Shown: piece by piece, positions 13,601-63,862 of the stretch
Position numbering within the stretch: position 1 is the stretch's first letter
How the letters are laid out: the number at the start of each line of letters is the position of its first letter
DNA from: Eledone cirrhosa
Lineage: Eukaryota
NCBI GenBank assembly: GCA_964016885.1
Contig: OZ024743.1
Coordinates: 368,528,001-368,592,000, forward strand
DNA: 64,000 nt
Reading direction: 5' to 3'
Position numbers and translations under genes: made by a program
Notes under the pieces: generated by a model
What the model saw: the letters and a program-made list of their open reading frames with translations, nothing else
What the model was told of the DNA's origin: nothing
Database searches by the model: none

Positions 13601-14704
13601 GGAAGTCCTTGTCGTCTGTTAGAGCAGTAGTGTGTATTAGGGACTCGTAAAACCTATCCTTAAGTTCGTCTGGCAGCCCCGATTGGGGTGCGTAAGCTGA
13701 TATTATTGTGGTAATTGTCTTATTCAGGACTAGTCTGAGTTTAATGATTCTTGCATTTACCCTGTACACTGAGATTACTTTATCTACCCACTTGTCAGCT
13801 AATAGTATACCTACACCACCCATCCCATCGTCATTTCCCACCCAGAAAAATTTGTAGCACTGGCTTTTTCCTACAAGGACTCTAGCAGACCCTCCTCTCC
13901 ATCTAGTCTCTTGCACACAGCATACATCAACTTCCTTTCGCTCTAGCATTTCTACGATTTCTCCTGCTCTTCCTTTCATTGAGCCTACATTGATGGTACC
14001 AACTCGGAGTTTTGGGCATTTGTCGACACTCGTAGGGGAGGGTCTCTGGGTTGGCGCTTCACGTGGGTGCTTGGTAGCTCGCAGATTCATATTTCATCTA
14101 TTGATTCAGAGTTGCTCGTGTATTCCCAGCTCATCCATCCATAACGGTGGGAAAATTGAGGGCTAGAAGGACAGTGGTGGTGGGGTAATGGCAGGGTGTG
14201 TTGGGATGCGCCAGAGGAGGAGAGAGTTAGTTAGGCAGGTAGTAGCAGCAGCAGCAGTGGAAATGGCATGCTAGGTTTGATTGGTCGAATAGACTATGGT
14301 GGTGTGTGGGGGTGGGGTGGAGGGAAATTGTGAGGTAGGAACTGAGGGTCGCATGGTAAATATCCAAGTTAATACTACATCAGTGAAATTAACAATAATA
14401 ACGTCATGAAAAAAGCTACTAAGAGAAACCCTCGAAAATTTATCGCTAATACAGCAGGGAAAATTTAACGCTAATACAGCAGGGAACATCATAATATTAA
14501 CGACAATATGTAGGCTAAAATACCTTCGTAGATTAGATGGATGGCTGGCTGGGAAAATTTGAATCAGCTCTAGTGGTACATTTTAGCAGAGAAGAATGGG
14601 AAAGTGTCTTATCTCTTCAATATTTTCAGATTGAATGAATTAGGTTAAAGACAGGGTAGTAAGCCTTAAAGAAGTGCATAGAGAGGGGGGGGGGGTAGGA
14701 ACTG
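10664..14704 (-). mobile_element. Full-length, apparently intact RTE-clade LINE (subfamily A) with (GAT)n tail, inserted in (TA)n
   Basis: About 610 bp 5'UTR, single 1040-aa APE-RT ORF, about 300 bp 3'UTR ending in (GAT)n; both ends abut TA arrays. Confidence 0.93.
10968..14090 (-). CDS. RTE LINE ORF: apurinic-like endonuclease plus reverse transcriptase with inserted PHD-type zinc finger
   Basis: APE motifs GTINVGS, CVQETRW, SAYAP, GDFNGH, LDFIL, SQHSLV; RT motifs YRGIKL, QFGF, FVDLEKAFD, GVHQGSVLSP, YADD, FCYLG; RTE C-terminal RLRWYGHV and GRPKMTW. No stops. Confidence 0.95.
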   Translation of the reverse strand: MNLRATKHPREAPTQRPSPTSVDKCPKLRVGTINVGSMKGRAGEIVEMLERKEVDVCCVQETRWRGGSARVLVGKSQCYKFFWVGNDDGMGGVGILLADKWVDKVISVYRVNARIIKLRLVLNKTITTIISAYAPQSGLPDELKDRFYESLIHTTALTDDKDFLIIAGDFNGHVGKHCDGFNRVHGGHGVGTRNEEGFRLLEFCDANDMSICNTNFKKPDNHLITYRSGEHSSQLDFILIRGRDRWTVVNTKAFPSEECTSQHSLVVSDLTVRTRRALKQRPTWTRKIWKLKVPSTSNRFKDILLNAYDSKEEQIETFNVEENWEFLKNNLLEATDEVCGWSKTSSRRRVTWWWNNKVDEAVKAKRQAWKEWKNGGSRVHYIETKREARRQVYLARREAEDRKFKHVLQREDQKQEVFKIARQCVRDSCDVIGEKCIWNDKGELALTSAEKKDAWKSHYDRLLNEENAWEEETLPHVDPIEGPAVQVSGSVVSKAIRDMKIGKATGPSGIAAEMLKASGSVGHTITTRIVNQVILEGAIPKDWCSSIIVNCYKGKGDALDRGNYRGIKLMDQVMKVTERVIAQLIRDRVNIDEMQFGFVPGKGTTDALFLVRQLQEKYLAKSKPLYLAFVDLEKAFDRVPRAVIWWALRKLGVDEWLVKAVQAMYRGAVSKVRIGNEYSEEFSVQVGVHQGSVLSPLLFIIVLQAITEEFKTGCPWELLYADDLALIAESMVELENKFQTWKQGLERKGLKVNMTKTKVLVSRRENRTQIPSGKWPCSVCRKGVGRNSILCPKCKQWVHKRCSGISGSLIKNVGFTCSSCAETASKQPQETSTTNLWEGPVETVDSFCYLGDRISNGGGCSESTITRVRTGWKKFRELLPLLAAKKGFSLRMKGRLYDACIRTAMLHGSETWALKVEDLRRLERNEACMLRWMCNSNIRERQSINELRERLSIRGIKCCVQERRLRWYGHVMRMKDDSCIKRCRALEVDGNRGVGRPKMTWDEVIKADLTQLHLSKSMTHDRDFWRHAVIQGTRPPMGTC

Positions 14705-29722: not shown

Positions 29723-30486
29723 ATATATATTAGGAAGATGAAAAAAAGTAGAAAATGCTAATAGGATTTTCTCATAGAATAACAACAAAACATTTTTTTT
29801 AAAGTAATTTATCGTACCGGTTTCAGCCGATTATTATTTCGGCTTCTTCATGCTACAGGAAATATGGTAAAAAGTATATAATAAAATTAAGGTGTATATT
29901 AATTAGAAGAGGGTATTAGAGAACATAGTTTACATATATATAAAAGTTCACATTTTTGTTTATCTCTTTCTCTCTCTCTCTCTCTTTCTCTCTCTCTTCT
30001 CTCCTTGGTGGTTTGGTGGTAGTAGCTGCTAAAATAGAAGTTGGCTTGTTCCCTGTTACTGTCTGGCTGGCTGTTGACTATAATTGCATTAGTAGTAGTA
30101 GTTGTAGTAGTAGAGGGAGTAGAGGAAGAAGAAAAAGATGTGGTAGTTATAATAGGAAGAAGGCAAAGACGAAGGAGAAGAAGGAGAAGTAGCTGCTGCT
30201 ACCACCAAACCACCAAGGAGAGGCGAGAGAGAGAAAGAGATAAACAAAAATGTGAACATTTATATATACACAAACTGTGTTCTCTAATACCCTCTTCTGA
30301 TTAATATACACCTTAATTTTATTATATACTTTTTATCATATTTCCTGTAGCATGAAGAAGCTGAAATAATAATCGGCTGAAACCGGTTCGATAAATTACT
30401 TTTTAAAAAATGTTTTGCTGTTATTCGATGAGAAAATCCTATTAGCATTTTCTACTTTTTTTCTTATCTTCCTAATATATATATAT
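29723..30486. repeat. Long inverted repeat, probable inverted Penelope-like pLTR pair
   Basis: Arms 29723-30031 and 30190-30486 are reverse complements with scattered mismatches; each has a hammerhead-like core. Confidence 0.7.
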
Positions 30487-33309
30487 AGAAGAGGTAACAC
30501 AACAGTTAGTTCACCATACCGAGAACAATTGTTTCACCTAAGCGGATATATATATATATATTATCTTGTACAATTAAGTTTAGGCCATTACTCTCCATAA
30601 ACTATAAAAAAAGAATTAAAAGTCTGCTTTTATCTTAAACATTTATGTTTATTTCATGGTTGCACTTGTGTGCCAGATTATTTGATCTGAGATAAGACAT
30701 TAAAACTAAAACAATTGCATTGTGGTAGAACCATATTAGCCATTTAAAACACCTCAGTATTGTTATATTTATTTGTATTCTACTTTAATATTTGCAATTG
30801 TATTGATTAGTAAACATATATATATTAACAACATACTGAGAGTACACAATCATATGGTTATGGGTTCGATACCTGAACAAGGTGATGTTCACTTCACTGA
30901 AAATGAGTACTATAAGCAGCTGGTAATTAACCTTACAATAGACTGATGTCTCTTGTAACTTCAGTCACTTAACACCACATAAAACCAATATAAGCCCCTG
31001 TCTTTGTTCTTTCCATGCCAATATGAAAAAAACATACACCAAACTGATGCATACATACACACATGAACAATATTAAAGAATATGAATGTAACAGTACATG
31101 TTTTAAATGCTAATAATATGACTCTATCATAATGCAACTATATTGATTATTATGATCTCATTGATATTTGCTAAAGCATAGTTCCCATGTAAATTGAAAT
31201 GTACCAAGAAGATAATCATTAAGTTTCTGATCATAACTATTTCTAACACAGGTATGTGATCAGAGAACAGCCAATTAAATCAAGCCTACTACTTGTCTGG
31301 TACTTTATTTTTATCACCACCCCACACCAAAAAAAAAAGATGAATGGCAAAATAGACATCAGCAAGATTTAAACTTAAAATGTAAAAAGCTAAAACAAAT
31401 ACCATAATGTATTCTACCAATCCACTGCCCTACAAAGATTGTGATTATAAGACACTTATATTCTTGCTCCAATAAAGCATAACATTTTAAAGAATTAGTC
31501 CTCTATTCAACACTGCTTGGTCATGTTTGGAATATTATCCAAGTGCTGTTTACTAAATCTAAATGTAAGTCGATAAACTATTCAACATATGAGTATTTTA
31601 TACATTGCAATTAAAATCTGATATTAACTTTTAGATTCTCATTTCTTCAGGATATATGAAATATATACCTGAAACATAATAAAATATTTTCAATAGTTTG
31701 CAATATCTGTAGTACATTTTAATGCTTACTTCTATTAGATATCCAATAATTTCTGTAATAAATAGAATTTTATATCTATGTATTCCATAATTTCATATTG
31801 ATAAATCTAAACAGTATACACTGATATTATTAATAGTGTGTGTGTATGTGTATATATATTAAGAAGTATTTCTGTGTATACAAATATAAACTTTATATAT
31901 ATATATATGTTCAACTCTGACCTTCAACATTGATAAAGAAATATTGATATTTTCAATATAGTTCAGCAATTCCAAATTAGATTACTTCAGAAATATTTGG
32001 TGTCCTTTGATGCCTTCTTATATAATCAGCTGTTAGTTGTTATAGGTTTCTATCTATAAACCAGTTTTATATCTTTTTGCTTTCTGCTTTATTCTTATGT
32101 GAATCAATGGATCAATTTGTACACACCCCTCCACATACATTTGGTCTTGATTGTAAGTTTGTACAAGTGCTGTCCAATATATATAATTGCAACTGGCCAA
32201 ATGTTTAAGAAGTTTACTTTACAATTATAAAGTCTTGGCTTCAAATTCACTGAGTGGCATCTTTAGCATGTCTTCAGTCCACCTCATTCTTATGAGGGAA
32301 ATTGGCTATATGGAAACTGTATTGAAAACTATAAGATGAACCCTCCTTGTAGATAAAGGTGCAGCTTTGTCACACACTGTATTATAATATTTTGGCCTGA
32401 GTGCAAGTGTCTGTGGAATATTCAGCCACTTATACAACAATTCAACCAATAGATAAATCAATTGATCAACTAACTGGAGTACCTATCATCAAAACTAACA
32501 GAATCCATGTGCATTGAATGTGTATGAGTGTAATGGAACATAGTGCAGGCTGTTTATGTACTACACGTAATATTTTGTAAAAAAAAAAGTAAAAACAAAT
32601 AATAATGCTTTCTGATTTAGGCACAAGGTCAACAGTTTAGGGGTAGGGGAAAGTTGATTATTTTGACACCAGTATATTACTAGTACTTTATTTCATCAAC
32701 GCTGTAAAGCTGAAAGGCAAAGCTAACCTATAGCTCTCTTCTCTTCCTATTATTACCAAGATTCAAAAGGAAAGCCATCAAGGGATTCTCTACATGATTC
32801 CTCTCATATCACACTTTACTATAGTAAAAAAAAAAGAGGACACATTAGATAATATAGTAATTGATAGCCTGTGTACTTGTAATTCAAAGTACCATCCTTG
32901 TCACACTGTCACACTAAATCCTCATCATTGTGTTAGGGGTACATTAGATAATATACCATTGATTTAACAACTGGAATCTATCATCTGAATTTGTCAGAGG
33001 TCCATATGTGTGTTAGTGTCTGGGTATAGGTATGTGATTCTGTGTGTGTATGTAGGTACACATGTATTATTTAAATTTCTATAATTCTACAATAACTGCC
33101 AGATCTAAATGCTTCCATGCAATAATGTTTAAAGAATCCTTAACATTTGGCAAAACTTTCAATTTTGACATTTTCTTTCCATATTTGAAGTGTCAAGAAT
33201 TATTAACAATTATAAGTTTAAGATAATTATGATTTCAATAGGTATTATAGGTTTAAGACAAGATTAAAATAACCTATTAGGATAATTATGATTTTAATAG
33301 GCATTGTAT

Positions 33310-34746: not shown

Positions 34747-36838
34747 TATATAGATTATAGATAATTATGATTTCAGTAGGCATTTCTTAATTGAATTTCA
34801 ATTAAGAAATGCCTACTGAAAAGTGCCTTGAAATTAAATTATATATACATGCTTTTAACAGAGTCCTCTCTGTTACAAGTATTCCCTCTTTCTCGCCAGT
34901 CTTAGCAGCTCTGTAAAAGGTCCTGGGTATTGCCTTCCCCATCCTGATTAAACAATATAGAATAAATAAATAAATACTCTAAAATGTCCTCATATACTGT
35001 AGGTGTATATTTCATATATCCTGAAGAAATCAGAGTCAAATAAAAATTAATATTAGTCATATATCAAATGTAACATGTGAAACAATTGTTTGGGTTATGC
35101 CAAAGGCTTCTAAGCTTTTTTGCGGGGAGGGGTATTCAAGCTAAAACTTTTAGTTTGATAAATATTTTTATATATCATTACAGGACATTTTGAAAAATTA
35201 CATGATGATGGAATATAAAATTAAGATGGTGCTATTAAAATCAAGCCTTTTTTTACAGATATATTGTTTATCTTGTTGTACAAAAGAAACTAGATAGAAA
35301 GAAGGGAAATTCTAGGATTAGTATACCCATTTTCTTCTGTTTTTCAGGAAAGTGACTGCTTTTATTAGATTATCCTCATAATAATTGATGGAGGGCAGGA
35401 AAGCTAAATGCTTGTTAGTTTCAATATCTAATTTTCAGTCTTTCTGATCATGAGACTTTTGTATAACTATTGTTGATAATGATGATAGTATTGTTTTAGC
35501 AGAATTAAGATCAAATCTTTGTTCATCGATCAAGTATTCAAACATGATTTAGTATATATTTTACAGTAAACTTTCCTAGAGATATAATTTAATGTTTAAC
35601 CAAGGTCAACTTTGATCTAGCAGACCTTTGAGGAAAGGTGTTCCAACCATTAACAATGTCTTTTCAGGCATAATGTATCTGGGACTGTATTATTCTGTGT
35701 CCTTTCTTAAGATGGTTTGTATAATACGAAGGAGATTTGAGAGGCATTGATGAATGATCACTATCTGAAAGAGAGATAATTTAATATCAAGCCAGTGAGC
35801 AAAAGTGTTCCAACCATCACCAATCTGCCTTTTCATGCATAGTGTATCTTGGGTTGTATTATCCTATGTTTCCTTTCCTTTTTAAGATGTTTGGTGCAAT
35901 ATGGGAAGATTTGACTACTGTTTCTAGCATGCCAAGCAACCATATAAAGGCTCTCACATTAGCATGTCATAATTTGATGTTTACGTAGATATTAACTATT
36001 AAGAATCAGAATCTTGTGTCTAATATCTCCACTGTGAACCTGAAGTTATTACAACTTTTCACGTTTGTTTCTCTCAGAACTTTCTCATTGATCATGAAGA
36101 ATAGTTCCTAAATCTTACGTGCTTCATAATCACTGAATTTTCACAAAAGCTAATTTTCCAAGGACTCTTTCATTCTCTAATGTCTTTTATATCGGTTTTA
36201 TTAATTTTCCAGTTTGCTTATTAGTAAATGTGGTTGCTATTCATTCTATATTGATTCATTCATCATGTTACACAGCTGCAGACAACAGCCTGGGTGATTC
36301 TCCTCTCTGTTAAGATTAATGCTATACATTATCATCATCATCATCATCATCATCATCAACACTTTAATATAACTATTCCCAGCAACATTTCACTTTCCAT
36401 TTCCCACGCTACTATAAATCAGATGAGTCTGTTTGGTCACATATCTTTATGTTCCTTAAGCTGATGATAATAAACTCCCACAATTTCATTTTTTAATCCA
36501 GTATTTTGGGGCAGATTGGAATCAAAAGGTTTAATAAAGATACTTCCTCAGTTCAGAAATTCAGTCAGTTGTAGTTTAGTCCTAGATCAGCTTTGATTAA
36601 GCAGAACTAAAGAAATTAAGTAGTTTAAAATGCTAGGTGCAATCTTCAGGTCCAGTACTGCAGGTATATCATGCCTTCCCTCAGTGTAGAACCATACTGA
36701 GTACTTTGATGTTCCATTGTTAATTTAATCTGATGTACACTCTGAGAAGGAATAGAAAATTTGGATGAGATACGAGTTTTTATACAATTAAGTTATTTCC
36801 AAAGCACAGTTTCAGGGAATTTCTAGTTTATATTAGAA

Positions 36839-38365
36839 CTAGCAGCTGAGCCCGGTTGCACCCGGGGCCACTTTTTATTAAGTTAATAATTTGAAAAATA
36901 TTATTGAAAGTTTATTATAAAGAAGCAGTTTCAGGAAAAAAAATAGAAATATGCACTTGGGGCTGGACGGCGTACAATGAGAAGTGGAGCGACGTAAAAA
37001 GTGTTGTTTATTAACAGCGAAATAGCAATGTCAATGATATGCAAGTTTGAAAATGCAGAAATAGAAGGTTTGTATGAAAGTTTACATTTTGATTGCCCTG
37101 GTCAGCAAGAGGGGCCTCTATATATTAGACGTTTATTAGAAGAGGGGGAAATAACTAACCCCAGTATTAGAACAGAGGGTTCGCAATGTAACGGTTTTAT
37201 TTCTTTTGTTAGAAAACAGTGACCTTTTTTCGGTTTGGCATTTCGTAAAATTCTACTGCAGAATCGATTTCATAAAATGGTACTGTATGATCGTTATAGA
37301 AGTATTTAAATTTAATATAGAGCAACTGTAATTGAAAAATGAAAATGAAACGTACTGTAGAAGGCAACAGTTTATTAACAGTGAAATAACGTTGTCTTTG
37401 ATATGTTATTTTAAATAAGACAATGAATATTTAAAAAAAAACTGAATTAATTAACTCGGCAACCAAAGGGCTTATAGATCCCATTCCTTAAGTTTACAAT
37501 GAATATTAAAAAAAAACTGAATTAATTAACTCAGCAACCAAACGGCTTATAGATCCCATTCATTAAGTTTACAATGAATATTTTTAAAAAACTGAATGAA
37601 TTAACTCCGCTTATAGATCCCATTCATTAAGTTTACATGCATGTATTCTTTAAACTTTTCATTTGACTTTGAAAAATACTACTTAGTGTTAGTGGTGGTT
37701 ATTAGAATTAAAATAAAAATGATAATGCCAAACCGAAAAAGGTCACTGTTTTCTAACAAAAGAAATAAAACCCTTACATTGCGAACCCCCTGTTCTAATA
37801 CTGGGGTTAGTTATTTCCCCCTCTTCTAATAAACGTCTAATATATAGAGGCCCCTCTTGCTGACCAGGGCAATCAAAGTGTAAACTATCATACAAACCTT
37901 CATAATCTGCATTTTCAAACTTGCATATCATCGACATTGCTATTTCGCTGTTAATAAACAACGCTTTCCACGTCGCTCCACTTCTCATTGTACACCGTCC
38001 AGCCCCAAGTGCATATTTCTATTCTTTTTCCTGAAACTGCTTCTTTATAATAAACTTTCAATAATATTTTTCAAAAACACCGAAAGAACGTTGTGTTTGA
38101 TATGTTATGAAAAAATTGATGAGTTTAAAAATTTGTATGAAATTGTAAATAAGACAATGAATATTGAAAGCGACTATCGAAAATAACTCATCCAAGTATT
38201 AGAACATGGGGAAATAACTCACTGGAAGCGATAGTAAATAGACCGTTTGGGGGCCCTAGGGACCACATTTTTCAAGTTAGAGATTTGTAAATTTTCATGT
38301 ACCCTCCGACCACGTCTACTACCATTGAATTTCAACCACCACCCATTTCACAAATATATATTAGA
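36839..38365 (-). mobile_element. Non-autonomous Helitron with internal inverted duplication and tandem repeats
   Basis: Minus strand A|TCTAATATATA start and ccccgggtgcaaccgggctcagctgCTAG|T end. Confidence 0.75.
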
Positions 38366-42450: not shown

Positions 42451-42599
42451 CTATATGCAGGGAATCTAGGACCATATTATCCATTGTTCTTTTTTTAAGG
42501 CAGTAAAGTGTATTTGAGATATATTTAGCTGCTATTTCTAGCAGGCTGTGTGACCAATTTAGGGCTCTTGTGGCAGTGTATCCATCTGTACATCTGTTA

Positions 42600-43010
42600 T
42601 CAATGCCATGATAAAGTTCTTCCTTCTGCCTACTTTTCCAGCATTGCTAAATGAAGTTTCTTTGCCTCTAATTCGATGTCATCTTCGAGGACTTTCTTCA
42701 GTGTAATCTTTGGTCACTTAACTTGTCTACATACATTTGGTTTCCAGAGAAGAACTCTGCCAGCAGATTCATTGTGACTTTTCACATGTCCAGCCAATGC
42801 AAGTCTCCATCACTTGCATTGGCAACCATAGCAGATTTATTTGTTGCATGTGCTTTCCAAGAGATGTTCTGGGCCTTTCCGAGTATTTGTGTGTGTGTGT
42901 GTGCCATTGATCTTCTTTAATGTTGTCTTTAATGTTCTCATAGAAGAGAATGGATTCAGCCATTGCTTTAAAGAGCCTCATTTTCATTGCTTTCTTAATA
43001 GGGAGTTAAG
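42600..43010 (-). mobile_element. Highly decayed RTE C-terminal fragment
   Basis: MKMRLFKAMAESILFY resembles the RTE LF...ESILLYG motif. Confidence 0.5.
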
Positions 43011-43653
43011 AGCTCCTTAGTTTGTACAACTACCTAGGTACAGTATCACACTTGGTATTATTCATGAGATAGGTATTGGTGGTGGTATATCAGTTGTAGA
43101 GGTGGTTGTATAGTTGATGGTTGTGGTAGTAAAGGTATAGTTGAGGTATTGAATGGTGTTGGTGGTTGAGTAACATACTTCAATAATTCAGAAATGTTCC
43201 ATGATTATCATCTTACCACCTTTTAGTTTTGTACTTTACACGATGCAAAATATTCTGCTCATTTTCTTTGCTGTTGATGAGATTTGCAAGTGAAATATCT
43301 TTGAAACAGACTTAGAAAGCTTCAGTTCAAAACACTGTGACAAACATTATATGATTTAGACAGTCTACTTCACAAAATTAATTTTTTTTAATTTTAGGTT
43401 ATACAAGAAAGAATAGAGGAATACATCTGAGAAATCAACTTAGGGCTGGTTTTGTAATAAATATTTTACTGTAACCCTAAAAAAAAAGATATTTTGATAA
43501 AGAATGTAATAATCATATGGAGGTTGAAAAACAATTATTGAGATGTTTTTTTCTGTTTTAGATCACATTATATTTTTATCAAAATTCTAAAACAAATTGT
43601 TCTGGACAATGTTGGTATTTTTTTTTTCAAATTTAACTTCTGTTCTTTTGTAG

Positions 43654-43806
43654 GTGCAATTCGCGAGGATATGTGTGGCTTTGAAGAAATCACACAAGCT
43701 CCAGATCCTGTTGAATCTCGTCCATTTGACCAAAATTTGGTCAATATTACCTACCCTAGCACACAAAACCAAGGCATGGCACTATATGAAAGAGTTGTGA
43801 TAGGAG
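43654..43806 (+). CDS. Nrx-IV: Penultimate coding exon of a Neurexin IV/Caspr (CNTNAP)-like gene (end of last LamG domain plus juxtamembrane stalk)
   Basis: Polypyrimidine tract and ttttgtag acceptor, gtgagt donor, 153 bp, phase 1-1, open frame (G)AIREDMCGFEEITQAPDPVESRPFDQNLVNITYPSTQNQGMALYERVVIG(V). It splices in frame to the 50163 exon (G+TG=Val). Resembles the Nrx-IV C-G-x-E...P-V-E-T/S-R-P stalk. Confidence 0.85.
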
Positions 43807-45794
43807 GTGAGTTGTCTCTTTTATTATAGTGGTGAATTGGCTGTCATTAAAGCATAGAATAAAATCATAGTCAACTTTGCCTTTCATTTTTTGGGGGTCA
43901 CTAAAATAAAGCACCAATTCAGGGAACTGGATTGGCAGAATTGTAAGAGCATCAGACAAGATGCTTTGCATTAATTGTTTTGAATTCAAATCCTGTAACC
44001 TACTAAGATAGCAGAATGAATCCCTTTCCCAGTCTAACACTACCATCTGGCCTTTTGGTGCCTTAGTGTCCACACCATTGCAAGCACATGGGCCATGATT
44101 CTAATTTAAGGACACTTTTCTTCCACCAGTTTTCAGGAGGCCCTAAAAAGGCATTGACCTCCCCTTCCTGACTAAAACACATCACAATAAATCAGATTAG
44201 CCTCTATAAATTTGATGATCTTTCCTTTTATGCAATGACTTCCTTCAGAGTGCCACTACTTACTTGGATCACTTCCTGTAGTTACAATAACTGATTTTGT
44301 TCTTCAGAACGCTTATCCCCATTCTAAAGTTTTTGGTAAACTATCCTATTTATTGCATTTATCACATATATCATAATATGCTTTGATTGTCTGAGGAAGA
44401 GGTGGGGGTCAATAAAATTTAAAACCATTAATCATTGTCAACTAATCTAAACTATCAGTTTTTATCTATTTTACCACTTCAGTATGACAGCCATAAACCT
44501 GGATATTCTGCTTAGAAATAACCTATTGAGAAAAATTTGTAACACATTCAGTTTCATATCAAAGAGAATAGGAAATATTGAAATGAAGCTATCTTCTATG
44601 AATTATTAAGTAGGTTATGAATAGTTGGCAGCATTTAAAATTTGCAAAACTATTGATGTATATAATAATTTCAGTAAAAACCTGTCAAACTAAATTTGAA
44701 TTAAAATATTCATGCAATCATCTCTTTTTCTATACTTATTGTCATTGTTGTGTCGCTCTGATTGAGCAGGACTATGACATGTACCTACTCATTGAAACAA
44801 TTAGCTGTGATCCACTACTCTAGATATACTATGTCTCTAACATGGAAGATGTCAAACTTTATTGTATGGGATGTAATGTGTCCACACATGTAATGACCAT
44901 TGTAGCAGTAGTCAGGGTGGGCTTCATTTAAACCTGTGTCAACTCTGATTCTGTAGTCATTTGGCTATAAATGTACCAAGCATGACCATCCCATTTTTTT
45001 CAGACGTAATTTCTCTAAATGAAGAGGAGGGTAGGACAAAGGAGGAAATAATAAGGAATATAAATATGGTGTCATAGGTGTAGGCAGGTAGGAGAGGTGA
45101 GAAAGTATGTCATAAGTGATGGGATTTGACAGGGGAATGAGCAGGAGGGGTAATCTCTGGTATTATGGGGGTCACTGCAATGATAAGAACAGCTACGAGG
45201 GAGTTATGATGTGTGTCAGGATTTAAGAGGGGTGGTTATGTACAGTGATGGTGAGAATTGCTACTAAGTAGTGGTATTGGAAGTGGGGCATGAATAGATT
45301 AGGTTACATCTTTTATGCTAAGCAAGTCTTCTCCGGTACCTCATGTCACCAATCCTCACAATCCTTTGTCATCTCTGTCATGAGGTTCAGCCTCCTGATG
45401 CTGGTTTTTGCTACTTCTTCCATGTCAAACTAGGTCTACCTCTTCCATGAGGCCCAGCCATTTATAAGTTTATATATATACTTGTCTGTATGTCTGTCTA
45501 CCAAACTACATCTTTTGCTGTTTGTCAATCTTTCTTTCTATCTATCTTTCTATCTATCTCTATTCATTTTCCTATATGTGTATCTATCTGTCTAATAATC
45601 TGTCATGTTGACGGATTATGCATAAAAATGTTTTTATTTACATAGCATTTCTACAGTCAACAACAAATATATATCATTGACTGGATTAAAGTCTCATAAA
45701 AGAGATAAACATCAAAACTAAAATAAAATAAAAAGCCTAGGTATTGGGCCCTCATATGTCAAAATTGGTGGAAGAATCCATTATTATATATATA

Positions 45795-45874
<80 letters not shown>

Positions 45875-47509
45875 CGCATATTTATTGCTCTTGACTGTAG
45901 GAGTGTTGCATAAATAAATAAAAATGTTGAAGCATAATTCATCAACAATAGATGTTTTTCCTTTTTAAATGAAATGCTCCATTCCTCTTTTGGCTTGTGT
46001 ACAGTCATACATGCACTCATAATAGTATTACCCAGTTTCAGTTCATTTTGGTAATCATTGTGCAAGCATTACCAGTAGTCAAGACAGACAGAGATTGAAC
46101 AAATATATATAGGATCTTCGTCATCATCATTTAACTTCTGTTTTCCATGTTTGCATGAGTTAGCTGTTATGTTCTGAGGACAGATTGGTCATATGTTCCA
46201 TTTCTCACATGGCCTCTGCACTACCACCTTACAGGGTGAACTGGGTGCTTTTTATCATGGCACCAATACCACCACTTTACAATGTAGACTGGGAGGGGCG
46301 CATAAGATGAATGGAGGGAACAGAAAGTTGCACCTTATTTACTGAGAGGGAAAGGAGTCATCCTCCACTGAGACAGCAAGCACCAGATCATGGGGCTGGC
46401 CTTGAAGAGAGTGACATTTGGCAGTATATTGTGGGGTCATATCAGGTTCTCCATGCTGGCCTGCACTGAGCAAGGAATATCAATTGAGGATGTGGGGGGG
46501 GGGGGGGGGTTAAAGTGAGGGCAGGCAAGTGGGATGTGGATATAATCTTTCCATGCTGGCATGGTTGTACAATGAAAGGTGTGAGTGGGGGGACTACATT
46601 GGCATGGGCTGAACAAGGAAGGACCTATGCAGGATGTGAATGGGGGAGGCCTAAAGACTGTATGTGGATTAGATGGTGTGGGAAAGCAAATTGGAGCATC
46701 AAGAGGATACTGGCAGATAGGGAGCTTTCTGCCTCATCCTTTATCATCCTTTCCCTGCTTGTATGAGGAGTCAAGCTTTATGAATAACTGCCTGCCACTA
46801 GTCAACTTAATCTTGTGTCATTTCTTTCTTGAGGTTCAGCAGCATGAGGTCACTGACTACTAAGTTATATTGGAAAGTACACTCCTTTCCAAGGAGGAAT
46901 TTTGTGTTTGCAACCTTCAATCAATCTGAATCCTAATATTGCTGATCATTGACATCACAAAAGTCCAGAAGCCTTGATCCCTCCTCATTTTCCTTATCAA
47001 ACCCAAGATAGCATGAACTCCATGAAAGCCCTTACAATGTTATTCAACATTTCCATTAAAATCACTGGCCATAATCATGAGGTCACCATTGTTTGTTACA
47101 CAACCATATGATGGCTGCCCTCTCGTTATTGAATGTAGCCATATCATGATATACCATTATTAATTAATTCTATTGTGCAATGCCTGTGCATGAAGATTTT
47201 TTTTTAAATGAGGAAAAACTGTGCACTGAGCCAATCCCACTCTCTGAGCGACTGTAGCTATAACTCGAAAAGAAGAAAAGATCAACATCATCGGTAACTA
47301 CTGAGCTGCAGGTTTTATATCGGAGTTATCCCAGTTTCCTGTGTTGCCTTCTCGAAGAAGAATGCCCTGACAAAGCTAGGGGGTCCTTCACTCCCAGTGG
47401 TTTAACAGCGCGATCATGTATCAAGCCTGACTATTTCTATGTCCCCGCGCATATACATACACATGCATATAGATATATACATATACATGTGTATATACAT
47501 ATTTACACA

Positions 47510-47702
47510 TTTTTGGATGGCCGTTGACTCTTATGAGTTCTTCCGCCCTTTGTCAGATTTTGTTTTTTGTCCTGCAGGGTGTCCAAAATCACCCCCTCAC
47601 CAAGTAAACTTGGTGGGGTTGCCAGTTTAGTCGCCAACAACCCGACCATGCGATAGGTTGTACTGGGTTACATGTTATCAATAGCACTCAAGAGTGACCC
47701 GA
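47510..47702. repeat. Unclassified interspersed repeat shared with 60260-60442
   Basis: Both contain aaacttggtggggtt(g/c)ccagtttagtc...gttacatgtt; possibly an RTE 5'UTR piece (inference). Confidence 0.6.
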
Positions 47703-47749
47703 CACACACACACACAAATATATATATATATACACACACACACAAGTGA

Positions 47750-48040
47750 AAGCACATGGTTTAGTGGTTAGAGCATTGGACTTGCAATCATGAGGTTGTG
47801 AGTTTGATTCTTGGACTGGGTGATGCATTGTGTCTTTGAGCAAGACACTTTATTTCACATTGTAGAAATGAGTTGTGATGTCACTGGTGCCAAGCTGTAT
47901 CGGCCTTTGCCTTTCCCTTGGACAACATTGGTGGCATGGAGAGAGGTGACTGCTGGTCTTCCACAAACAATCTTGGCCAGATTTGTGCCTCTAGGTGCAA
48001 ACCCTATGGTCATTCATGACCGAAGGGGATCTTTACTCTT
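47750..48040 (+). mobile_element. tRNA-derived SINE (different family)
   Basis: tggtttagtggttagagc A-box, gagtttgattc B-box, then gtgtctttgagcaagacactt. Confidence 0.65.
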
Positions 48041-48146
48041 TTGCTTGGCTTGAGATTATAATAGAAGACATTGCTCAAAGTACCATACAGTGGTATACAA
48101 CCTGAACATATATCTTAACCACATAACCATGCCTGTACCTACATAA

Positions 48147-48589
48147 TCTATATATATAAAACTGAGGATGTCTGTCTGTGTGTGTGTGTGTGTGAGTTTG
48201 AACCCCTAAAACTCGAGAAGTACCCAACCGACTTTTTTCAAACTTTACATGTGTATTACTTGTGTTTCAGGGAGTGTTATGCACATAAAAACATTCAACT
48301 TTTTGATCCCCTACTTCGTTTTTTCAGCTTTTTAGGGCTTTTTTGAGGCGTTAAGTCTAGCTGATTTTCCCAAAATTTCAAGGCCTATTATGCACATAAA
48401 AAAAATTCGTTTTATTGATCCCCTAGGGTCCACATTAGGTGAAAACCTGCATTTTTCGAGGAAAATCTTAAAGATTATCCAGCCATATTTGGTTTATTTT
48501 CTTTACATGCAGTTTTTACACAATTAGGCCTGTTGGTGGCCCGTGTTCCAAAATACCTTATCCCGTGCAATGCTGGGTACCACTGCTAG
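48147..48589 (+). mobile_element. Non-autonomous Helitron
   Basis: A|TC...CTAG|T ends with subterminal hairpin cccgtgcaatgctggg; body matches 1225-1525. Confidence 0.82.
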
Positions 48590-49043
48590 TGTAATATAAA
48601 ATCCACAAATATAAATATATCACATCAATTATCAAGGAATTCATGAGAAGCAAGAAAACCCTAATACTGGACAATCTCAAGATAGAAAACATATGGAAAT
48701 AAGTTCATATGAGTATTCAACAAATGAAATACAGGGATTGAATCTAGCCAAAAAAATGGGAAGAAATTCCAGTTAATGTGATCATCAAACTTATTGGTTA
48801 TATGCCTTGTAAATATGATTACATTTTGAGAAATTTCCATTACTCCACGAAATATTAGTGCTATATCATTTTATTTATTTCATTCCAATTTGGTTAAGAT
48901 TTTCAAACCAATCAAGTTGGCTGACTTAATTCTTAGTTTTGTTATTATCTCCATCTAGTTAGGATCACCTTGATTTCCAAGTCATCTGACATAGAAGATG
49001 TTATTTGTACAAATCAATACTTTCTCTCTGAGTCCTTACTCAA

Positions 49044-49480
49044 AATGGATGTTCATCATCATCACCGTTTAACATCCATTTTACCATGCTAGCATGGGTT
49101 AGACGAGTTGTCTCATTGTGAGACAAGCCAGATCAGATGACCATGTTTTGCTCATACAGAACTGATTTTAGCTTGGTTTCTATGGTTGAATGCCCTCCTA
49201 ACACCAACCACATTCACAGTGTGTACTGGATGCTTTTTATTGTGGCACCAAATTGACCACTTTACTGTAGGCTGGGCATTTTTTGTCATGACACCTACAG
49301 TGTGGACTGGGTACTTTTTGCCATGGCACTAAAACAACCTCTTTACAGTGTGGACTGGGAGGCTGGGGATTGAGGAGGTAGATCTAGGGTGTGGTACTTA
49401 TCTGGTGATGGTTGAGGTGTAGGGACGTGGGTGAAGGATGAGATATTAGGACTGTAAAACTAGATAACTGTAAAACTAGA
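49044..49480 (-). mobile_element. RTE 3'UTR fragment in the last intron
   Basis: catcatcatcaccgtttaacatccattttaccatgctagcatgggttagacg followed by 3'UTR subrepeats. Confidence 0.8.
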
Positions 49481-50162
49481 TAACTACAGAAGTAACGAGT
49501 GAGAGAAGATAACACTTTGGAAAACAAATCAAGTATATGGTAACAGTTCTAGTCAGTGACCATTTACCATGATCATTGAGTAGATACTGTTACATAATAT
49601 TGTATGTCCACAAATACATTGTAGATATCTTTACAATTTGTTACAAATAATAGTGTCTCTTATTTTACTCAAGTTTTGTCTAGGAATTTATTATTTTAAG
49701 TGTATGTTTAACTTCAGGCTACTTTGATTGATAAGTTCATTGATAGGTCTTTTTCTTTCAATATGAATTTTTTATATAAATTGAGTTTATATACTAATAT
49801 ATAATTTGTAATGGTATTATCTATAATATATTCTATGTATTTTGGGTCAGTGACTAGTTAAGACTATGTAATGGCCTGTATTGATGTGTGTTTTCACAAT
49901 GTAGTCTATATATGATACACATGTAGAAAAAAAAACTGTTCCTAAATTCTTCATTTAAAATTTTATGGATTGTCTTAGAAATATGCTTTTCTTCATGTAT
50001 TGCAATCTATGGAGAAATTGATCTGATGAAAGCTTAAAAAAATATTCCTGAAATATTTCATTCTTTTGTGTGATTTCCTATAAATTAGCACCCTATTGTT
50101 CCTATGACATTAAGAATGCAGTTTATAATTGTTGCATTTTTGTTTTTCTTTTTTCTTTTCAG

Positions 50163-50350
50163 TGGTTTTATCTCTGTTTCTATTGATCCTAATAATTGTG
50201 TTATACATAATCTGCTACCACACACGTCAGAAGGGAGACTATGAAACTAAAGAAGCTAAAGGGGCTGACTTGGCAGATAATCCAGATATGGCCATTATGT
50301 ATAATCAAGAAGGTTTACCAATTCCAAAACGACAAGAGTGGTTTGTTTAA
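50163..50350 (+). CDS. Nrx-IV: Terminal coding exon of a Neurexin IV/Caspr (CNTNAP)-like gene: TM helix, band 4.1-binding motif, C-terminal PDZ ligand
   Basis: Strong acceptor ttttcttttcag. Encodes VVLSLFLLILIIVLYIICY (TM), HTRQKGDYETKEAKGA (4.1m motif of neurexin/Caspr/glycophorin C type) and KRQEWFV-stop (compare Nrx-IV/Caspr2 EWFI/EWLI). Confidence 0.88.
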
Positions 50351-51530
50351 AATTTAACAAGATTTCATATCCAATCTGTATTGGAAAAATGGAACTATTT
50401 AGGAATAACACTGAAATGGGATATAACGCCTTTAATCATGTCTTTGATATGATTTATCATGTGAAACAGGCATTTTATACATTTCATATATCATGAATAC
50501 ACACCACTCACACACCTGCTTAAACACACATGCATTTGTGCACTTTCAGGCATGCCTGTGTGTACATGGGTGCAGACTCACATGCATGTGTACACACACA
50601 CACATGCATATATGCACATTAAAATGCATGATAAAATACACAATTTACAAGAACTAGAAATGATGAATATTGACTTAATGAAATCTAAAAATATTAAGCC
50701 TCCCTTTTCATATTCTGCTGGTCTATTTTAAATCAGGAACTCACAAAATAACTCCTATAAAAAAACAGAAAAAAATGCCAAAAAAAAAAAGAAAGCTAAA
50801 AATAATTTTTTTTCAGTTCCTCAGTTAATTTTTAATTGCTTTAAGGACTAATCTTTAAGATTAACTTATAAATTCTCACCTTATTTCACACTGCCGTGCC
50901 AATTCCATGAGGTTTTAGTTTTTTCTTCTCATAAAAAAATTATTTTTTTGAAACTGTTTTTATGTTAATCTGTGAGAAATTCTTTGGCTCTATTATAGTA
51001 TCTGTAGGCGTCACATTTATTTTACTTTTTAATTAGTTAAGATTAACAAATGCCATAATTGATATAAATAATGGCATCCTATAAATATTTATAAGCATTC
51101 TTTTATTTCATATATATAGTGTTTAGAATGTCATATCTTCCAACGCTTTTACATTATATATATATATATGAAGTCAATATTTTTTTTATTTTAATAATTT
51201 AATTTTTTTTTTTTTACATTTTCTTCTAATTTTATATTATTTTCCTTTGTTATTATAAAAGACACTTTTTCTCTCTCCCCCTCATGTAAATATATAACTT
51301 TTTGCTGGTTTTTCCATCTACACATTTTTTTCTTCTTCGATTGAACAAAATGAAAAGATCATATCACAGTGTTTTGAACTGAAGCTTTCTAAGTCTGCTT
51401 CAAAGATATTTTTTACTGTAGATGTATTCACCTGCAAATCTGATCAACAGCAAAGAAAATGAACAGAACTGCAACCTTTTCAATTAGTTTGAATTTTAAA
51501 AATAAAGTTTTATATTTTATACAAGAAAAT
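50351..51530 (+). other. Probable 3'UTR of the Nrx-IV-like gene
   Basis: AU-rich sequence free of recognisable TEs between the stop codon and an AATAAA followed by a GU/U-rich tract; end inferred. Confidence 0.55.
51501..51506 (+). promoter_or_regulatory. Candidate polyadenylation signal AATAAA
   Basis: AATAAA followed about 25 nt later by ttgttgtttattgttatttattctttttt (GU/U-rich downstream element). Confidence 0.55.
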
Positions 51531-52459
51531 TTGTTGTTTATTGTTATTTATTCTTTTTTTCAGTTTCAATTTACAGGCTTATAGTTCTGCTCCCCTATCA
51601 TTCTTGTGATGGTTGTAATCAGTGCAGACGAAAATGTTTGAAAATCTGTCAAAAGCAGACCTATGATCTAAGGCCATAACCATCCTATCTTATTATTCAG
51701 CATAGAGCACCCTTGTGCACTATGTCAGTCTGCTTTTTTTTAAGATGGTAGTATATGATTTTATGGAAATATGGCTGCTATTCGTAGCAGATCGAATGAC
51801 AACATAAAAGCTCTCCTTTATCTCATAATTGATTAGTTTTATTAAGTTGTTTAAAAAATATCATCTCTGTTATAAAAGGTAATAATTGGAGGTAATTACA
51901 GAGATCACAAACAGATGATCTAAAGCAGATGTGAAGAACCATTTTAATAGTTTGGAAGGGGAGGAATTACAAGTGCATAAACTCTGTGTGTCCATCTGTG
52001 CTGAAAAATCCCTAATTTTACAAATTCACAGGTATGATACTTATATTGATCAGGATTTTACAGCTGCTTTCCATGCTAGCATATATTAAATTACTGCTTT
52101 CATCTTAAATCTTATACCATTTGTTTGTTTTTTATAGTTGATTTTTATGGGTTTTTAGTGATTTTGTTAGTGGGAGGTTTCGAATTTGAATGTGGGCAAA
52201 ATTTTGCTTGTGGGTGAGGGGTTTGCATACCTTATGTTAGGCAAAAGTGGTTGATGGAGTTACAGCAAAGTTAGTACAAGATAATTCATTTGAATTAGTT
52301 ATAGTTTGTGTTTGCACCATGATGTGCTGCACAGTATTAGTATTTTGTATATATATATTAAATGAGATGCTAGGATCATTGGGAGAAGTAGGAGTCAAAC
52401 TAGTAACCTGCACAGTCAATCAGGAAATACAGGTTGGAGTCATACCCAATGACTAGCGC

Positions 52460-53586
52460 AGCAGTACCTCGATCTGTTATCTGGTGGTCCTTAAGGAAAT
52501 TAGGTGTAGAAGAATGGCTTATGAAAGAAGTACAAGCCATGTAAAGAGGAGCTGTCAGTAAAGTGAGGAATTCAAGGTACAGGTAGGATTTCATCAAGGT
52601 TCAGTTTTTAGCTCACTGCTGTTTATCATAGTTCTCCAGACCATAACAGAAGAGTTTAAAAATGGCTGTCTATGGGAACTTCTTTTCATCTGCTCATAAT
52701 TTGGTCCTTATAGCTGAATCCATAAAGGAACTAGAAAATAAGTTCTGACTATGGAAACAGAAGTTGGAATCAAAAGGTCTGAGAGTGGACTAAGTGAAAA
52801 CTAAAATGCTAGTAAGTAGGAGAGAAAATAAGACCCTGATTCCTTCAGGGAAATGGCCTTGCTCAATATGTAGAAAAGGAGTAGGCATAAACTCCATGTG
52901 GTGTACACGAGATGTAGTGGGATAACATCAGTGATATAAAACTCTTCAAGTCATTGGAAGGAAGGGTTCATAGTGTGGTTGACAGTGTCTGCTATCTAGG
53001 TGACTTAATCAGCAGTGGAGGAGGGTGCTCTGGGAGCATAATAGTTAGAATATGGATAGGTTGGCAGAAGTTTAGAGAACTACTCCCACTGTTGACAAGA
53101 AAAGGTCTCTTCTTTCGTACAAAAGAACGACTGTATGACACCTGTGTGCAAAGTTCGATTTTGCATGGTAGTGAAATATGGGCAGTGACTGCAGAAGACA
53201 TGTAGACTGGAGTGAAATGAAGTAGCCATGCTTCATTGGATGTACAACATAAATGTGAGAGAAAAGAAGAGCTTGGATGAACTGAGGGAAAAGCTGGGTT
53301 TAAGATGAATCTGAAGTAGTGTGAAGGAGAGAAGGCTGCATTGGTACAGACATGTGATGTGTATGAATCAGGATCGATGGGTGAAGAGGTACTAGGAAAT
53401 GCCAGTGGATAGAAGCCACAAGAGAGGTAGACCGAGAAAGACCTAGGCAGAGGTGGTGAGAGCTGACTTCAAATTGCTGAGATTCACAGAGATGATGATG
53501 AAATGTGAGTGAAGAGAAGCTGTGCTGAAAAAGACCTGTCCAACCCATGCAAGTGTGGAAAAGTGGACATAAAAACAATGATGATA
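52460..53586 (+). mobile_element. Decayed RTE relative of subfamily A (RT to tail)
   Basis: Remnants VPRSVIWWSLRKLGV, GKWPCSICRKGVG, VDSVCYLGDLISSGGGC, ILHGSEIWA with stops and frameshifts; tail acctgtccaacccatgcaagtgtggaaaagtggac. Confidence 0.88.
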
Positions 53587-61500: not shown

Positions 61501-63862
61501 ATCATCATCATCATCATCATCACCGTTTTACGTCCGTTCTTCCACGCTAGCATGGGTTAGACGGGTTGTCCTGTTGTGGGCAGTGTCTGGTCGGCTGACC
61601 ATGCCTTGCTCATACAGGAACTGATCTGGCTTGATTTCTACAGCTGGATGCCCTTCCTAACACCAACCTCATTTACAGTGAGTGCTGGGTGCTTTTTCGT
61701 GGCGCCTACACGTCCACTTTACAGTGTGGGCTGGGTGCTTTTTTGCCGTGGCACCTCCACGGCCACCTTGCGGTGGGGGGGGGGGGGCATATTGTTTATA
61801 TGCTTCAGCATGTACCCATGGGAGGTCGGGTACCCTGTATTACTGCGTGACGCCAGAAGTCACGGTCGTGTGTCATTGACTTTGAGAGGTGTAGTTGGGT
61901 AAGGTCGGCTTTTATCACCTCATCCCAAGTCATCTTGGGTCTCCCCACTCCGCGGTTTCCATCAACTTCTAGTGCTCTGCACCTTTTTATGCAGCTGTCA
62001 TCCTTCATACGCATCACATGTCCATACCAGCGTAACCGCCTCTCCTGCACGCAGCATTTGATTCCTCTTATGCTCAGTCTCTCTCTCAATTCATTTATGC
62101 TTTGTCGTTCACGTATATTACTGTTACACATCCATCGGAGCATGCAGGCTTCGTTTCTCTCTAATCTACGTAAGTCTTCCACCTTCAGCGCCCAGGTCTC
62201 ACTACCATGCAACATCGCTGTTCGGATACACGCATCATACAGTCTGCCTTTCATTCTGAGGGAGAAGCCTTTTGCAGCTAGCAGTGGTAGTAGTTCCCTA
62301 AACTTCTTCCATCCCGTTCTTACCCTAGTTATTGTACTTTCTGAGCACCCACCTCCGTTGCTAATTCGGTCACCTAGGTAGCAGAAGCTGTCTACTGTTT
62401 CTACAGGGCCCTCCCAGAGATTGGTGGTACTTGTTTCCTGTGGCTGTTTGCTTGCTGTTTCAGCACAGCTGCTGCATGTGAATCCTACATTCTTAATTAA
62501 GCTTCCTGAGATCCCGCTACATCTCTTGTGTACCCATTGTTTGCATTTGGGGCAAAGAATGGAGTTCCTACCTACACCTTTCCTACATACTGAGCAAGGC
62601 CATTTCCCTGAGGGGATCTGGGTTCTGTTTTCTCGTCTACTTATAAGGACCTTAGTCTTTGTCATGTTGACTTTGAGGCCCTTTCTCTCTAGTCCCTGCT
62701 TCCAGGTTTGGAATTTATTCTCTAGTTCTACCATAGATTCAGCTATGAGTGCGAGGTCATCAGCATACAGGAGTTCCCATGGGCATCCGGTCTTAAACTC
62801 CTCCGTTATTGCCTGCAGGACTATGATGAACAGGAGAGGGCTAAGAACAGAGCCCTGGTGGACCCCAACCTGTACGCTAAATTCCTCGCTATACTCATTG
62901 CCAATCCTAGCTTTGCTGACTGCTCCCCTATACATGGCTTGTACCGCTTTCACAAGCCATTCATCTACTCCTAGTTTTCTAAGAGCCCACCAGATTACTG
63001 CACGTGGAACTCTGTCAAAGGCTTTCTCAAGGTCGACAAATGCCAAGTAGAGTGGCTTACTTTTAGCTAGGTACTTTTCCTGTAATTGCCTCACAAGGAA
63101 GAGGGCATCAGTGGTGCCTTTCCCTGGTACAAACCCAAATTGCATCTCGTCTATATTCACCCGGTCCCTAATCAGCTGTGCTATAACTCTTTCTGTTACT
63201 TTCATGACCTGGTCCATCAACTTTATACCTCTATAGTTTCCTCTATCTAGTGCATCACCTTTACCTTTGTAGCAGTTGACAATGATGCTACTGCACCAAT
63301 CTTTTGGTATGGCCCCCTCTAGTATTACCTGGTTAACGAAACGTGTGGTTATAGTGTGACCTACAGACCCAGATGCCTTCAGCATCTCGGCAGCTATACC
63401 CGATGGACCGGTTGCCTTCCCTATCTTCATATCTCTGATTGCCTTACTTACTACGCTGCCACTGACTTCTACTGCTGGTCCCTCTATAGGGTCTACGTGG
63501 GGTAGGGTCTCTTCTTCCCATGCATTCTCCTCATTTAGTAATCTATCATAATGACTCTTCCATGCATCTTTCTTCTCAGCACTTGTGAGGGCAAGCTCAC
63601 CTTTATCATTCCGGATACACTTCTCTCCAATGACATCACAACTATCTCTGACACACTGCCTCGCAATCTTGAATACCTCCTGTTTCTGGTCCTCACGTTG
63701 TAAAACATGCTTGAATTTTCTATCCTCTGCTTCCCTCCTAGCTAAGTATACTTGTCGCCTAGCTTCCCTCTTGGTCTCTATGTAATGTACCCTGCTCCCC
63801 CCGTTCTTCCATTCTTTCCATGCCTGTCTCTTGGCCTTGACTGCTTCATCTACCTTATTGTT
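61501..63862 (-). mobile_element. 5'-truncated RTE subfamily A copy (RT intact, APE missing)
   Basis: Protein identical to 10968-14090 from NNKVDEAV onward except a few substitutions and one codon indel (AAKG vs AAKKG); same 3'UTR and tail. The N-terminus of track ORF 61805-63988 is flanking DNA. Confidence 0.93.

What the first reader, a model, noticed from the sequence alone, without database searches (positions are those of the whole stretch)
43242..51475. Intron segment complementary to the distal 3'UTR brackets the last two Nrx-IV exons
Seen: about 43253-43340 (ttctgctcattttctttgctgttgatgagatttgcaagtgaa / atatctttgaaacagacttagaaagcttcagttcaaaacactgtga) is the reverse complement of about 51364-51468. 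There are only about 4 substitutions and a roughly 20-nt bulge on the UTR side. One arm lies 300 nt upstream of the penultimate acceptor, the other about 30 nt upstream of the AATAAA, 8 kb apart. I saw no other copy in the window and no TE hallmarks. Known: coleoid cephalopods edit neural RNA heavily through ADAR, and long-range duplexes can act as editing-complementary sequences or affect splicing. Inference: a pre-mRNA duplex looping out the stalk, TM and PDZ exons could couple terminal splicing, 3' end formation, UTR editing or back-splicing of the symmetric 153-nt exon.
Basis: partly seen in the sequence, partly recalled or inferred. Interest (0 to 1): 0.72.

Follow-up and report, generated by a model that had tools for sequence, protein, structure and literature searches.

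The report
Inverted 3'UTR copy in neurexin-IV intron
In an octopus-type neurexin-IV gene, 88 bases from the far end of the messenger's tail sit copied backwards in a 179-kb intron 8 kb upstream, likely as a DNA-repair scar; the two copies could pair in unspliced RNA, but the one spliced transcript seen is normal and shows no editing there, and no matching copy turned up in the one relative examined, so it is probably harmless.

Summary
Real and not a transposon: 43253-43340 pairs with 51364-51468 (84 of 88 bp, 17-nt bulge); each arm has only these two places in the 3.0-Gb genome. The gene is an octopod neurexin-IV; the 5' arm ends 313 nt before the acceptor of a 178,758-nt intron. The regulatory reading gained no support. 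The one spliced contig (tissue unknown) is normally spliced and unedited in its majority sequence, with no circle. In a relative about 5.5% diverged, intron homology stops at a LINE 63 nt short of the arm and nothing covered the arm, though a filter can hide records. There are no G-U pairs; arm divergence (4.5%) matches species divergence. A second genome-unique inverted pair lies in the same intron with no exon between. Best reading: a local templated insertion, likely near-neutral, that may pair transiently and draw minor editing. The scan noted similar inverted copies at two other genes of this genome (unchecked). Unexplained: four further 10-12-nt UTR matches beside the arm, one complementary to the bulge.

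The parts
43253..43340 (+). 5' arm: inverted copy of the distal 3'UTR, lacking 17 nt, in the 178,758-nt intron
43350..43357 (+). further 8-bp helix with 51356-51363 beyond a 9-nt gap (predicted)
43399..43410 (+). 12-nt direct match to 51517-51528, which spans the mRNA 3' end
   Evidence: 33 of 5,000 shuffles, 8 of 4,606 real windows
43419..43428 (+). 10-nt stretch complementary to 51420-51429, i.e. to the bulge (would be a pseudoknot)
   Evidence: 16 of 3,000 shuffles; -14.6 kcal/mol
43464..43495 (+). two direct matches of 10 and 11 nt to 51411-51420 and 51402-51412
43404..43404 (+). point where intron homology with organism B ends; B has a high-copy LINE fragment, cut inside its reading frame, on the upstream side
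43654..43806 (+). penultimate neurexin-IV exon, 153 nt, phase 1-1 (stalk, start of transmembrane helix)
43807..50162 (+). last intron, 6,356 nt
50163..51524 (+). last exon: transmembrane helix and cytoplasmic tail to TAA at 50348-50350, then the 3'UTR; transcript contig ends near 51524
51364..51468 (+). 3' arm in the distal 3'UTR
51412..51428 (+). 17-nt bulge; holds two of the seven TGTA words of the UTR (51417, 51423)
51501..51506 (+). AATAAA, the only one in the UTR, about 18 nt before the end of the transcript contig

Best explanation
The intron arm is a single-copy, backwards duplicate of the gene's own distal 3'UTR that likely arose when a DNA break in the intron was patched by copying from DNA 8 kb away, and it is likely close to neutral. 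Shown: two copies only, inverted, 95% alike, sharp ends, no G-U pairs, no transposon family. Inferred: origin by template switching or break-templated insertion, around the time of the split from organism B; the 17-nt gap and the short flanking matches may be further switches of the same event. Predicted consequence: in those transcripts whose 179-kb intron is still attached when the UTR end is made, the arms would zip into a duplex of about 84 bp (loop 8.0 kb, or 1.7 kb once the last intron is out) and ADAR would edit a minority of molecules; the main product is normally spliced, full-length mRNA.
For: Copy number 2 against 39-1,113 candidates for six control pairs. Arm divergence 4 of 88 (4.5%, 95% interval 1.3-11.2%) does not differ from intron divergence between this organism and B, 17 of 309 (5.5%; Fisher p = 1.0), so no selection is needed to explain the likeness. 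0 of 3 transitions give G-U on the RNA strand, and the antisense duplex is the more stable (-136 vs -126 kcal/mol). No contig of B was laid on 43165-43380, while one 1,507-nt contig covered 43404-43865. The spliced contig carries the genomic UTR letters (4 differences and the 17 nt, exactly as the DNA) and the exact 1,201-nt spacing. A second genome-unique inverted pair (31618-31670 / 35001-35056, 86%, 3.3 kb apart) lies in the same intron with no exon between. Precedents: germline templated insertions with several switches in humans (PMC8421209, section 10 part 1); a 220-bp inverted copy from the next intron captured at a CRISPR target site in mouse Tbxt (PMC10901737, passages). Base rate: 4,597 edited against 492,832 unedited non-repetitive predicted dsRNAs in human, over 99% of predicted dsRNAs not conserved (PMC11838218, passages and Table 1).
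Against: B's contig breaks at a LINE, so a conserved arm could sit on another contig that the tool's filter left out (warns of this). Contigs drop minority variants, the tissue is unknown and no raw RNA reads were available, so editing below one half is untested. The template is the distal UTR just before the poly(A) signal, a small target. Three A-C mismatches are the kind ADAR favours (recalled). The bulge holds two TGTA words (8 of 1,164 17-nt UTR windows do, all from this one place) and has a 10-nt complement 80 nt from the arm. The mouse Tbxt case shows that such an accident can change splicing. No empty ancestral site was seen, so junction microhomology could not be tested.
Confidence: 0.66

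Rival explanations
1. Selected editing-complementary sequence: the arm (whatever its origin) is kept because it pairs with the UTR while the giant intron lingers, so that slow splicing in neural tissue or in the cold is written into the UTR as inosines, or the duplex tunes use of the poly(A) site by presenting or hiding the two UGUA words of the bulge.
For: Unique, long, stable complementarity inside one pre-mRNA; 33 paired adenosines on the UTR side, 26 not preceded by G; 3 A-C mismatches; 10-nt complement to the bulge (16 of 3,000 shuffles); editing with an intronic partner follows splicing efficiency in mouse and human (PMC6724681, passages); a conserved, edited intron-3'UTR duplex is described in human SON (PMC11838218, passage).
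Against: No majority editing in the one spliced contig; arm not found in B; no G-U pairs; conserved human duplexes are shorter and less perfectly paired than this one (PMC11838218); neither arm covers the acceptor, the AATAAA or the cleavage site.
Confidence: 0.2
2. LINE-made retrocopy of the mRNA 3' end with an internal inversion (twin priming; mechanism recalled): inverted 51468-51356, then a direct piece up to the poly(A) site, then a decayed tail.
For: The inverted piece starts just upstream of the last 55 nt of the mRNA, and a 12-nt direct match to the cleavage site follows 58 nt later with an A-rich run behind it. LINEs are abundant here.
Against: The 41 nt between should be about 95% like 51469-51516 but are not (score 42.5 against 34.2 +/- 4.6; 102 of 2,000 shuffles reach it); the direct match runs 4 nt past the transcript end; no clear target-site repeat (only 6-8-nt AT-rich words).
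Confidence: 0.06
3. Loop-out switch: the duplex bridges the two last exons so that the upstream donor joins an AG just behind the 3' arm (51487), giving an immediate stop and a secreted ectodomain with a tiny UTR; or it promotes a circle of the 153-nt exon.
For: AG at 51486-51487 lies between the arm and the AATAAA and would read V-stop in the right phase; the exon is symmetric; paired regions are enriched around circles and transcript ends in human (PMC8052449, passages and section 12).
Against: That AG scores -3.2, matched or beaten by 31% of all AGs; the 5,381-nt transcript contig is unbroken and no back-splice joint was listed; the 3' arm is not in the intron flanking the exon.
Confidence: 0.05
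4. Copies of a dispersed repeat, chance, or an assembly error.
For: About half of the surrounding 1.26 Mb has self-matches; the genome search skips very common words.
Against: 2 candidates only; score far beyond shuffles; an independent assembly of reads shows both flanks and double depth on the shared 34-mer.
Confidence: 0.02

Closest known systems
Mouse Tbxt insRCS2 allele (PMC10901737; passages)
   Same: A short single-copy piece of the same gene captured backwards in a nearby intron at a break, making a reverse-complementary pair in the pre-mRNA.
   Different: There 220 bp, about 1 kb apart, both arms intronic around one exon, with shown exon skipping; here 88 bp, 8 kb apart, natural, one arm in the 3'UTR, no effect seen.
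Germline templated insertions linked to MMBIR (PMC8421209; abstract and section 10 part 1)
   Same: Insertion copied from a nearby template, inverted, sometimes from several templates in both directions.
   Different: Junction microhomology cannot be read here because the empty site is unknown; the event is old enough to carry 4 substitutions.
Intronic editing-complementary sequences (GRIA2, GRIK2, FLNB type; PMC6724681, passages)
   Same: Intron-exon duplex that exists only before the intron is removed, so editing would track splicing speed.
   Different: Those have shown editing sites and were sought within 2.5 kb; here the partner is 8 kb away, two introns upstream, targets a UTR, and no editing is shown.
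Pairs of conserved complementary regions, PCCRs (PMC8052449; passages and section 12), and the SON intron-3'UTR duplex (PMC11838218; passage)
   Same: Long-range complementarity within 10 kb, near a splice site and a transcript end.
   Different: Defined by conservation across species, which was not found here.

Membership tests
Locally templated insertion (MMBIR/break-repair type) | Insert matches a nearby single-copy template | tested here: met
   template 8 kb away, two places in the genome
Locally templated insertion (MMBIR/break-repair type) | Empty site in a relative or other allele | tested here: inconclusive
   B's homology stops at 43404 at a LINE; upstream contig not seen
Locally templated insertion (MMBIR/break-repair type) | Microhomology at junctions, or several template switches | tested here: inconclusive
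   2 nt (AA) at the 17-nt gap (read); four 10-12-nt pieces in the flank, 2 to 200 of 3,000 shuffles depending on the ranges chosen
Intronic editing-complementary sequence | Intron and exon segments of one pre-mRNA are complementary over more than 30 bp | tested here: met
Intronic editing-complementary sequence | A-to-I editing in the paired exon segment | tested here: inconclusive
   majority sequence of one spliced contig equals the DNA; minority editing invisible; tissue unknown
Intronic editing-complementary sequence | Editing is lost when the intronic partner is removed | not testable with these tools
   needs a minigene or knock-out
PCCR (conserved long-range pair) | Stable pairing within 10 kb | tested here: met
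   -126 kcal/mol, 8,023 nt
PCCR (conserved long-range pair) | Both arms conserved across species | tested here: inconclusive
PCCR (conserved long-range pair) | Compensatory substitutions | not testable with these tools
   no orthologous arm obtained
Circular RNA driven by flanking reverse-complementary matches | Matches lie in the two introns flanking the circularised exon | tested here: not met
   3' arm is in the last exon
Circular RNA driven by flanking reverse-complementary matches | Back-splice junction | tested here: inconclusive
   none among the joints; contigs show presence only
Transposon-derived inverted repeat | Many copies in the genome | tested here: not met
   against controls 28-30, 52, 62, 63
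LINE-made retrocopy | Poly(A) tail, target-site duplication, copy reaching the mRNA 3' end | tested here: not met

The most novel reading that the evidence does not exclude
An octopod-selected RNA timer: the end of a 179-kb intron pairs with the far end of the neurexin-IV 3'UTR, and a second intron piece pseudoknots into the 17-nt bulge that holds two UGUA words, so that slow removal of the giant intron is read out as UTR hyper-editing and as delayed or altered cleavage at the only poly(A) signal.
Probability: 0.1. Interest if true: 0.72.

Novelty: new member of a known kind. Interest (0 to 1): 0.27.

Why it matters
As best read it is ordinary: one of probably thousands of local inverted copies in this genome (inference from 1 to 4 others in 1.26 Mb). 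It still shows how editing-ready duplexes can arise without transposons in an animal with heavy editing, and it gives a clean natural test of whether an 8-kb intron-UTR pairing forms before a giant intron is spliced: any editing of these two single-copy arms can be mapped without ambiguity. If it proved conserved and edited, it would tie splicing speed of a giant intron to the 3' end of a neural adhesion mRNA.

Tried and rejected
No RNA holder was listed as such; run X4 is taken as RNA because its contig is spliced. The tool's 'A>G: 2' for X4 (43289, 43306) is not editing: these are the genomic C51432 and C51398 of the UTR arm read on the other strand. Orthologous DNA was sought without success: look-alike stretches in the scan, 0; metagenome contigs, 2 unrelated membrane-helix matches; translated UTR as a probe, 0 of 15 candidates and 0 hits. 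Rfam: 9 weak matches in 42500-52500, all below gathering score, none on an arm. Cryptic terminal exon from AG 43398 (25 codons, stop, AATAAA at 43458): acceptor score 4.9 (top 4% of AGs, below the gene's own), no RNA contig there, site replaced by the LINE in B: rejected. No coding exon of the 22 mapped has a comparable intronic complement in 462 kb (the one strong series is a repeat past an exon end). Neither arm folds unusually on its own (z +0.2 and -0.7). Pfam found no family above cut-off for the two short exon translations. Paper searches listed nothing on a cephalopod neurexin-IV intron-UTR duplex (listings only; PMC13015580 and PMC9989829 read as passages, added nothing specific). Supplements were not opened; published octopus editing-site tables could bear on the UTR arm.
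Full report
OBSERVATION. 43253-43292 pairs with 51468-51429 and 43293-43340 with 51411-51364; 84 of 88 positions are complementary and 17 nt (51412-51428) exist only on the UTR side. The alignment scores 135; 100 shuffles give 30.4 +/- 2.6, at most 39. Searched against the 3.0-Gb own genome, each arm returns two candidates, itself and its partner. The same search returned 115, 445, 914, 1,113, 171 and 39 candidates for six other local pairs, so it does see repeats, and the arms are not one. A DNA run of the same organism has contigs across both flanks of the intron arm and a separate 34-nt contig for the perfectly shared stretch at depth 15 against 8-9: two copies, no assembly error. That run may be the source of the assembly and is not independent of it as a sample.

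THE GENE. The last exon's translation is 97% identical to neurexin-4 of Octopus sinensis and 95% to Argonauta; the protein maps exon by exon over about 490 kb of G000:C4. Only the last two exons are in the window. The exon before them ends 178,758 nt upstream of the acceptor at 43653. So the 5' arm sits at the far end of a giant intron, 313 nt before its acceptor, and the 3' arm 32 nt before the only AATAAA of the UTR.

THE TRANSCRIPT. Of 8 runs listed four were laid on 43165-43868. Run X4, not on record as RNA, gave one contig of 5,381 nt, depth 138, that joins the upstream exon (its end matches the genome) to 43654-43806 and reaches the UTR arm exactly 1,201 nt later, the genomic distance without the last intron; it ends about 51524. 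I take it as the mRNA. Over the arm it shows 4 other letters and the 17 nt, the same as the genomic UTR. The two 'A>G' rows are arm-versus-arm differences, not editing. No intronic contig, cryptic exon or back-splice joint was listed. Limits: one sample, tissue unknown, contigs drop minority variants, and differences within about 30 nt of an end are counted but not listed. This excludes majority editing in that sample and little more.

THE RELATIVE. Run X5 (organism B) has one 1,507-nt contig over 43404-43865 with 18 substitutions and 14 gap letters: 1 listed in the exon, so 17 in 309 intronic nt, 5.5%. At 43404 it turns into other sequence, which occurs 246 times in G000 and belongs to a LINE, cut inside its reading frame (family name RTE-like is my recall). 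Nothing from B was laid on 43165-43380. Either B lacks the arm (never had it, or lost it in the deletion that cut the LINE) or it lies on a contig that the tool's filter left out. I weigh this about two or three to one against a conserved arm (judgement). B's UTR arm was not expected to show: with the 17-nt gap the organism's own falls just under the 80% bar.

THE DUPLEX. Predicted energy -126 kcal/mol at 37 C, with 34 unbroken pairs: a good ADAR substrate if it forms. But it looks like a DNA copy, not a co-evolved helix: no G-U pair among 84, all three transitions give A-C on the RNA strand, and the antisense duplex is the more stable (-136). Three of three is weak evidence (1 in 8 under neutrality), and A-C mismatches are also what ADAR favours (recalled). 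Arm divergence, 4.5% (1.3-11.2%), equals the divergence between the two organisms, so drift since about that split explains the likeness.

BACKGROUND. In 1.262 Mb around the gene, 114 pairs were two-copy within the sample; at 2.5-20 kb there were 8 inverted and 3 direct, against 5 and 5 at 20-100 kb. Five of the 8 were searched genome-wide: this pair and 31618-31670 / 35001-35056 are unique, three are repeats; three were not tested. The second unique pair lies in the same giant intron with no exon between its arms. Leaving out the finding, 1 to 4 per 1.26 Mb extrapolates to a few thousand in the genome, and if distal UTRs are about 1% of it (assumed), tens of intron-UTR pairs would arise with no function. 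This rests on very small counts. Earlier, unchecked notes of the scan describe inverted intragenic copies at DALRD3 and cofilin in this genome with normal mRNA, and one conserved clamp at UBR2; they are leads, not support.

THE ODD DETAIL. The 160 nt right of the arm hold four more exact matches of 10-12 nt to the distal UTR: direct to the cleavage site, inverted to the bulge, and two direct to the bulge and its edge. With ranges chosen after seeing them, 2 of 3,000 shuffles and 0 of 1,050 GC-matched real windows reach four; with the whole flank 36 of 3,000; with a wider target 200 of 3,000 and 54 of 906. It may be a patchwork of template switches, as in complex germline events (PMC8421209, section 10 part 1), a pseudoknot over the two TGTA words of the bulge (CFIm binding to UGUA is recalled), or chance in AT-rich DNA. 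Most of these pieces lie in the part shared with B, which would date the event before the split and make B's state a loss or a hidden copy; B has a 4-nt deletion and a substitution in the last piece.

Skipping needs an acceptor behind the 3' arm: the two AGs before the poly(A) site score -3.2 and -3.5 on a matrix made from the gene's own 22 acceptors (lowest 6.8, in-sample). Back-splicing is normally driven by matches in the flanking introns (recalled; PMC8052449 passages report enrichment outside circles); here the 3' arm is in the last exon. Neither arm covers the acceptor, the AATAAA or the cleavage site. Editing is the one consequence that the geometry allows: the duplex can exist only while the giant intron is attached, as for intronic partners in mammals (PMC6724681, passages); if the last intron goes first the loop shrinks to 1,667 nt. 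In human, 4,597 non-repetitive predicted duplexes are edited and 492,832 are not, edited ones have shorter loops (median 509 nt) but contiguous runs near 30 bp like this one, and conserved ones are shorter and less perfect (PMC11838218, passages and Table 1).

VERDICT. Shown: a unique inverted copy of the distal UTR in the gene's giant intron; normal majority mRNA in one sample; no arm seen in one relative. Inferred: origin as a break-repair or template-switch insertion, like the mouse Tbxt insRCS2 accident (PMC10901737, passages; lead and the word 'scar' taken from note e1-9809099); near-neutral status; minor editing at most. Confidence 0.66, against 0.20 for a selected editing partner. It works, at most, like an intronic editing-complementary sequence; it cannot be filed as one. 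No paper on this element turned up in the listings. Interest 0.27.

Noticed in passing
window 31618-31670 and 35001-35056: Second genome-unique inverted pair (86%, 3.3 kb apart) in the same intron, no exon between.
   Followed up: partly
G000:C4:368392896 to window 43653: The second-last intron of neurexin-IV is 178,758 nt, by far the longest among the exons mapped in 462 kb.
   Followed up: partly
window 43726-43744: 19-nt near-perfect palindrome inside the penultimate exon, where the protein reads QN against PS in O. sinensis; no difference listed in organism B; may be a short-range template switch.
   Followed up: no
window 10968-14093 (-) and 61523-63862: LINE with an open 1,041-aa reverse-transcriptase-type frame (family from recall) and a 99.4% identical copy 50 kb away.
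   Followed up: no
window 36890-38075 and 29723-30482: Fold-back elements with long inverted ends; the first is a family with 914 candidates in the genome.
   Followed up: partly
window 43398-43475: Cryptic acceptor followed by 25 codons, a stop and an AATAAA: would give a secreted form; not seen in the transcript contig, acceptor absent in organism B.
   Followed up: yes
L127:3213-3361 / 9335-9483; L051:2096-2160 / L052:3072-3140; L075:4631-4690 / 7592-7651: Three more inverted two-copy pairs 2.9-10.9 kb apart whose genome-wide copy number was not tested.
   Followed up: no
window 51285-51292 and 50618-50623: A TGTAAATA word (Pumilio-type element, recalled) and a proximal ATTAAA in the UTR; use of the latter would give a UTR without the arm.
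   Followed up: no
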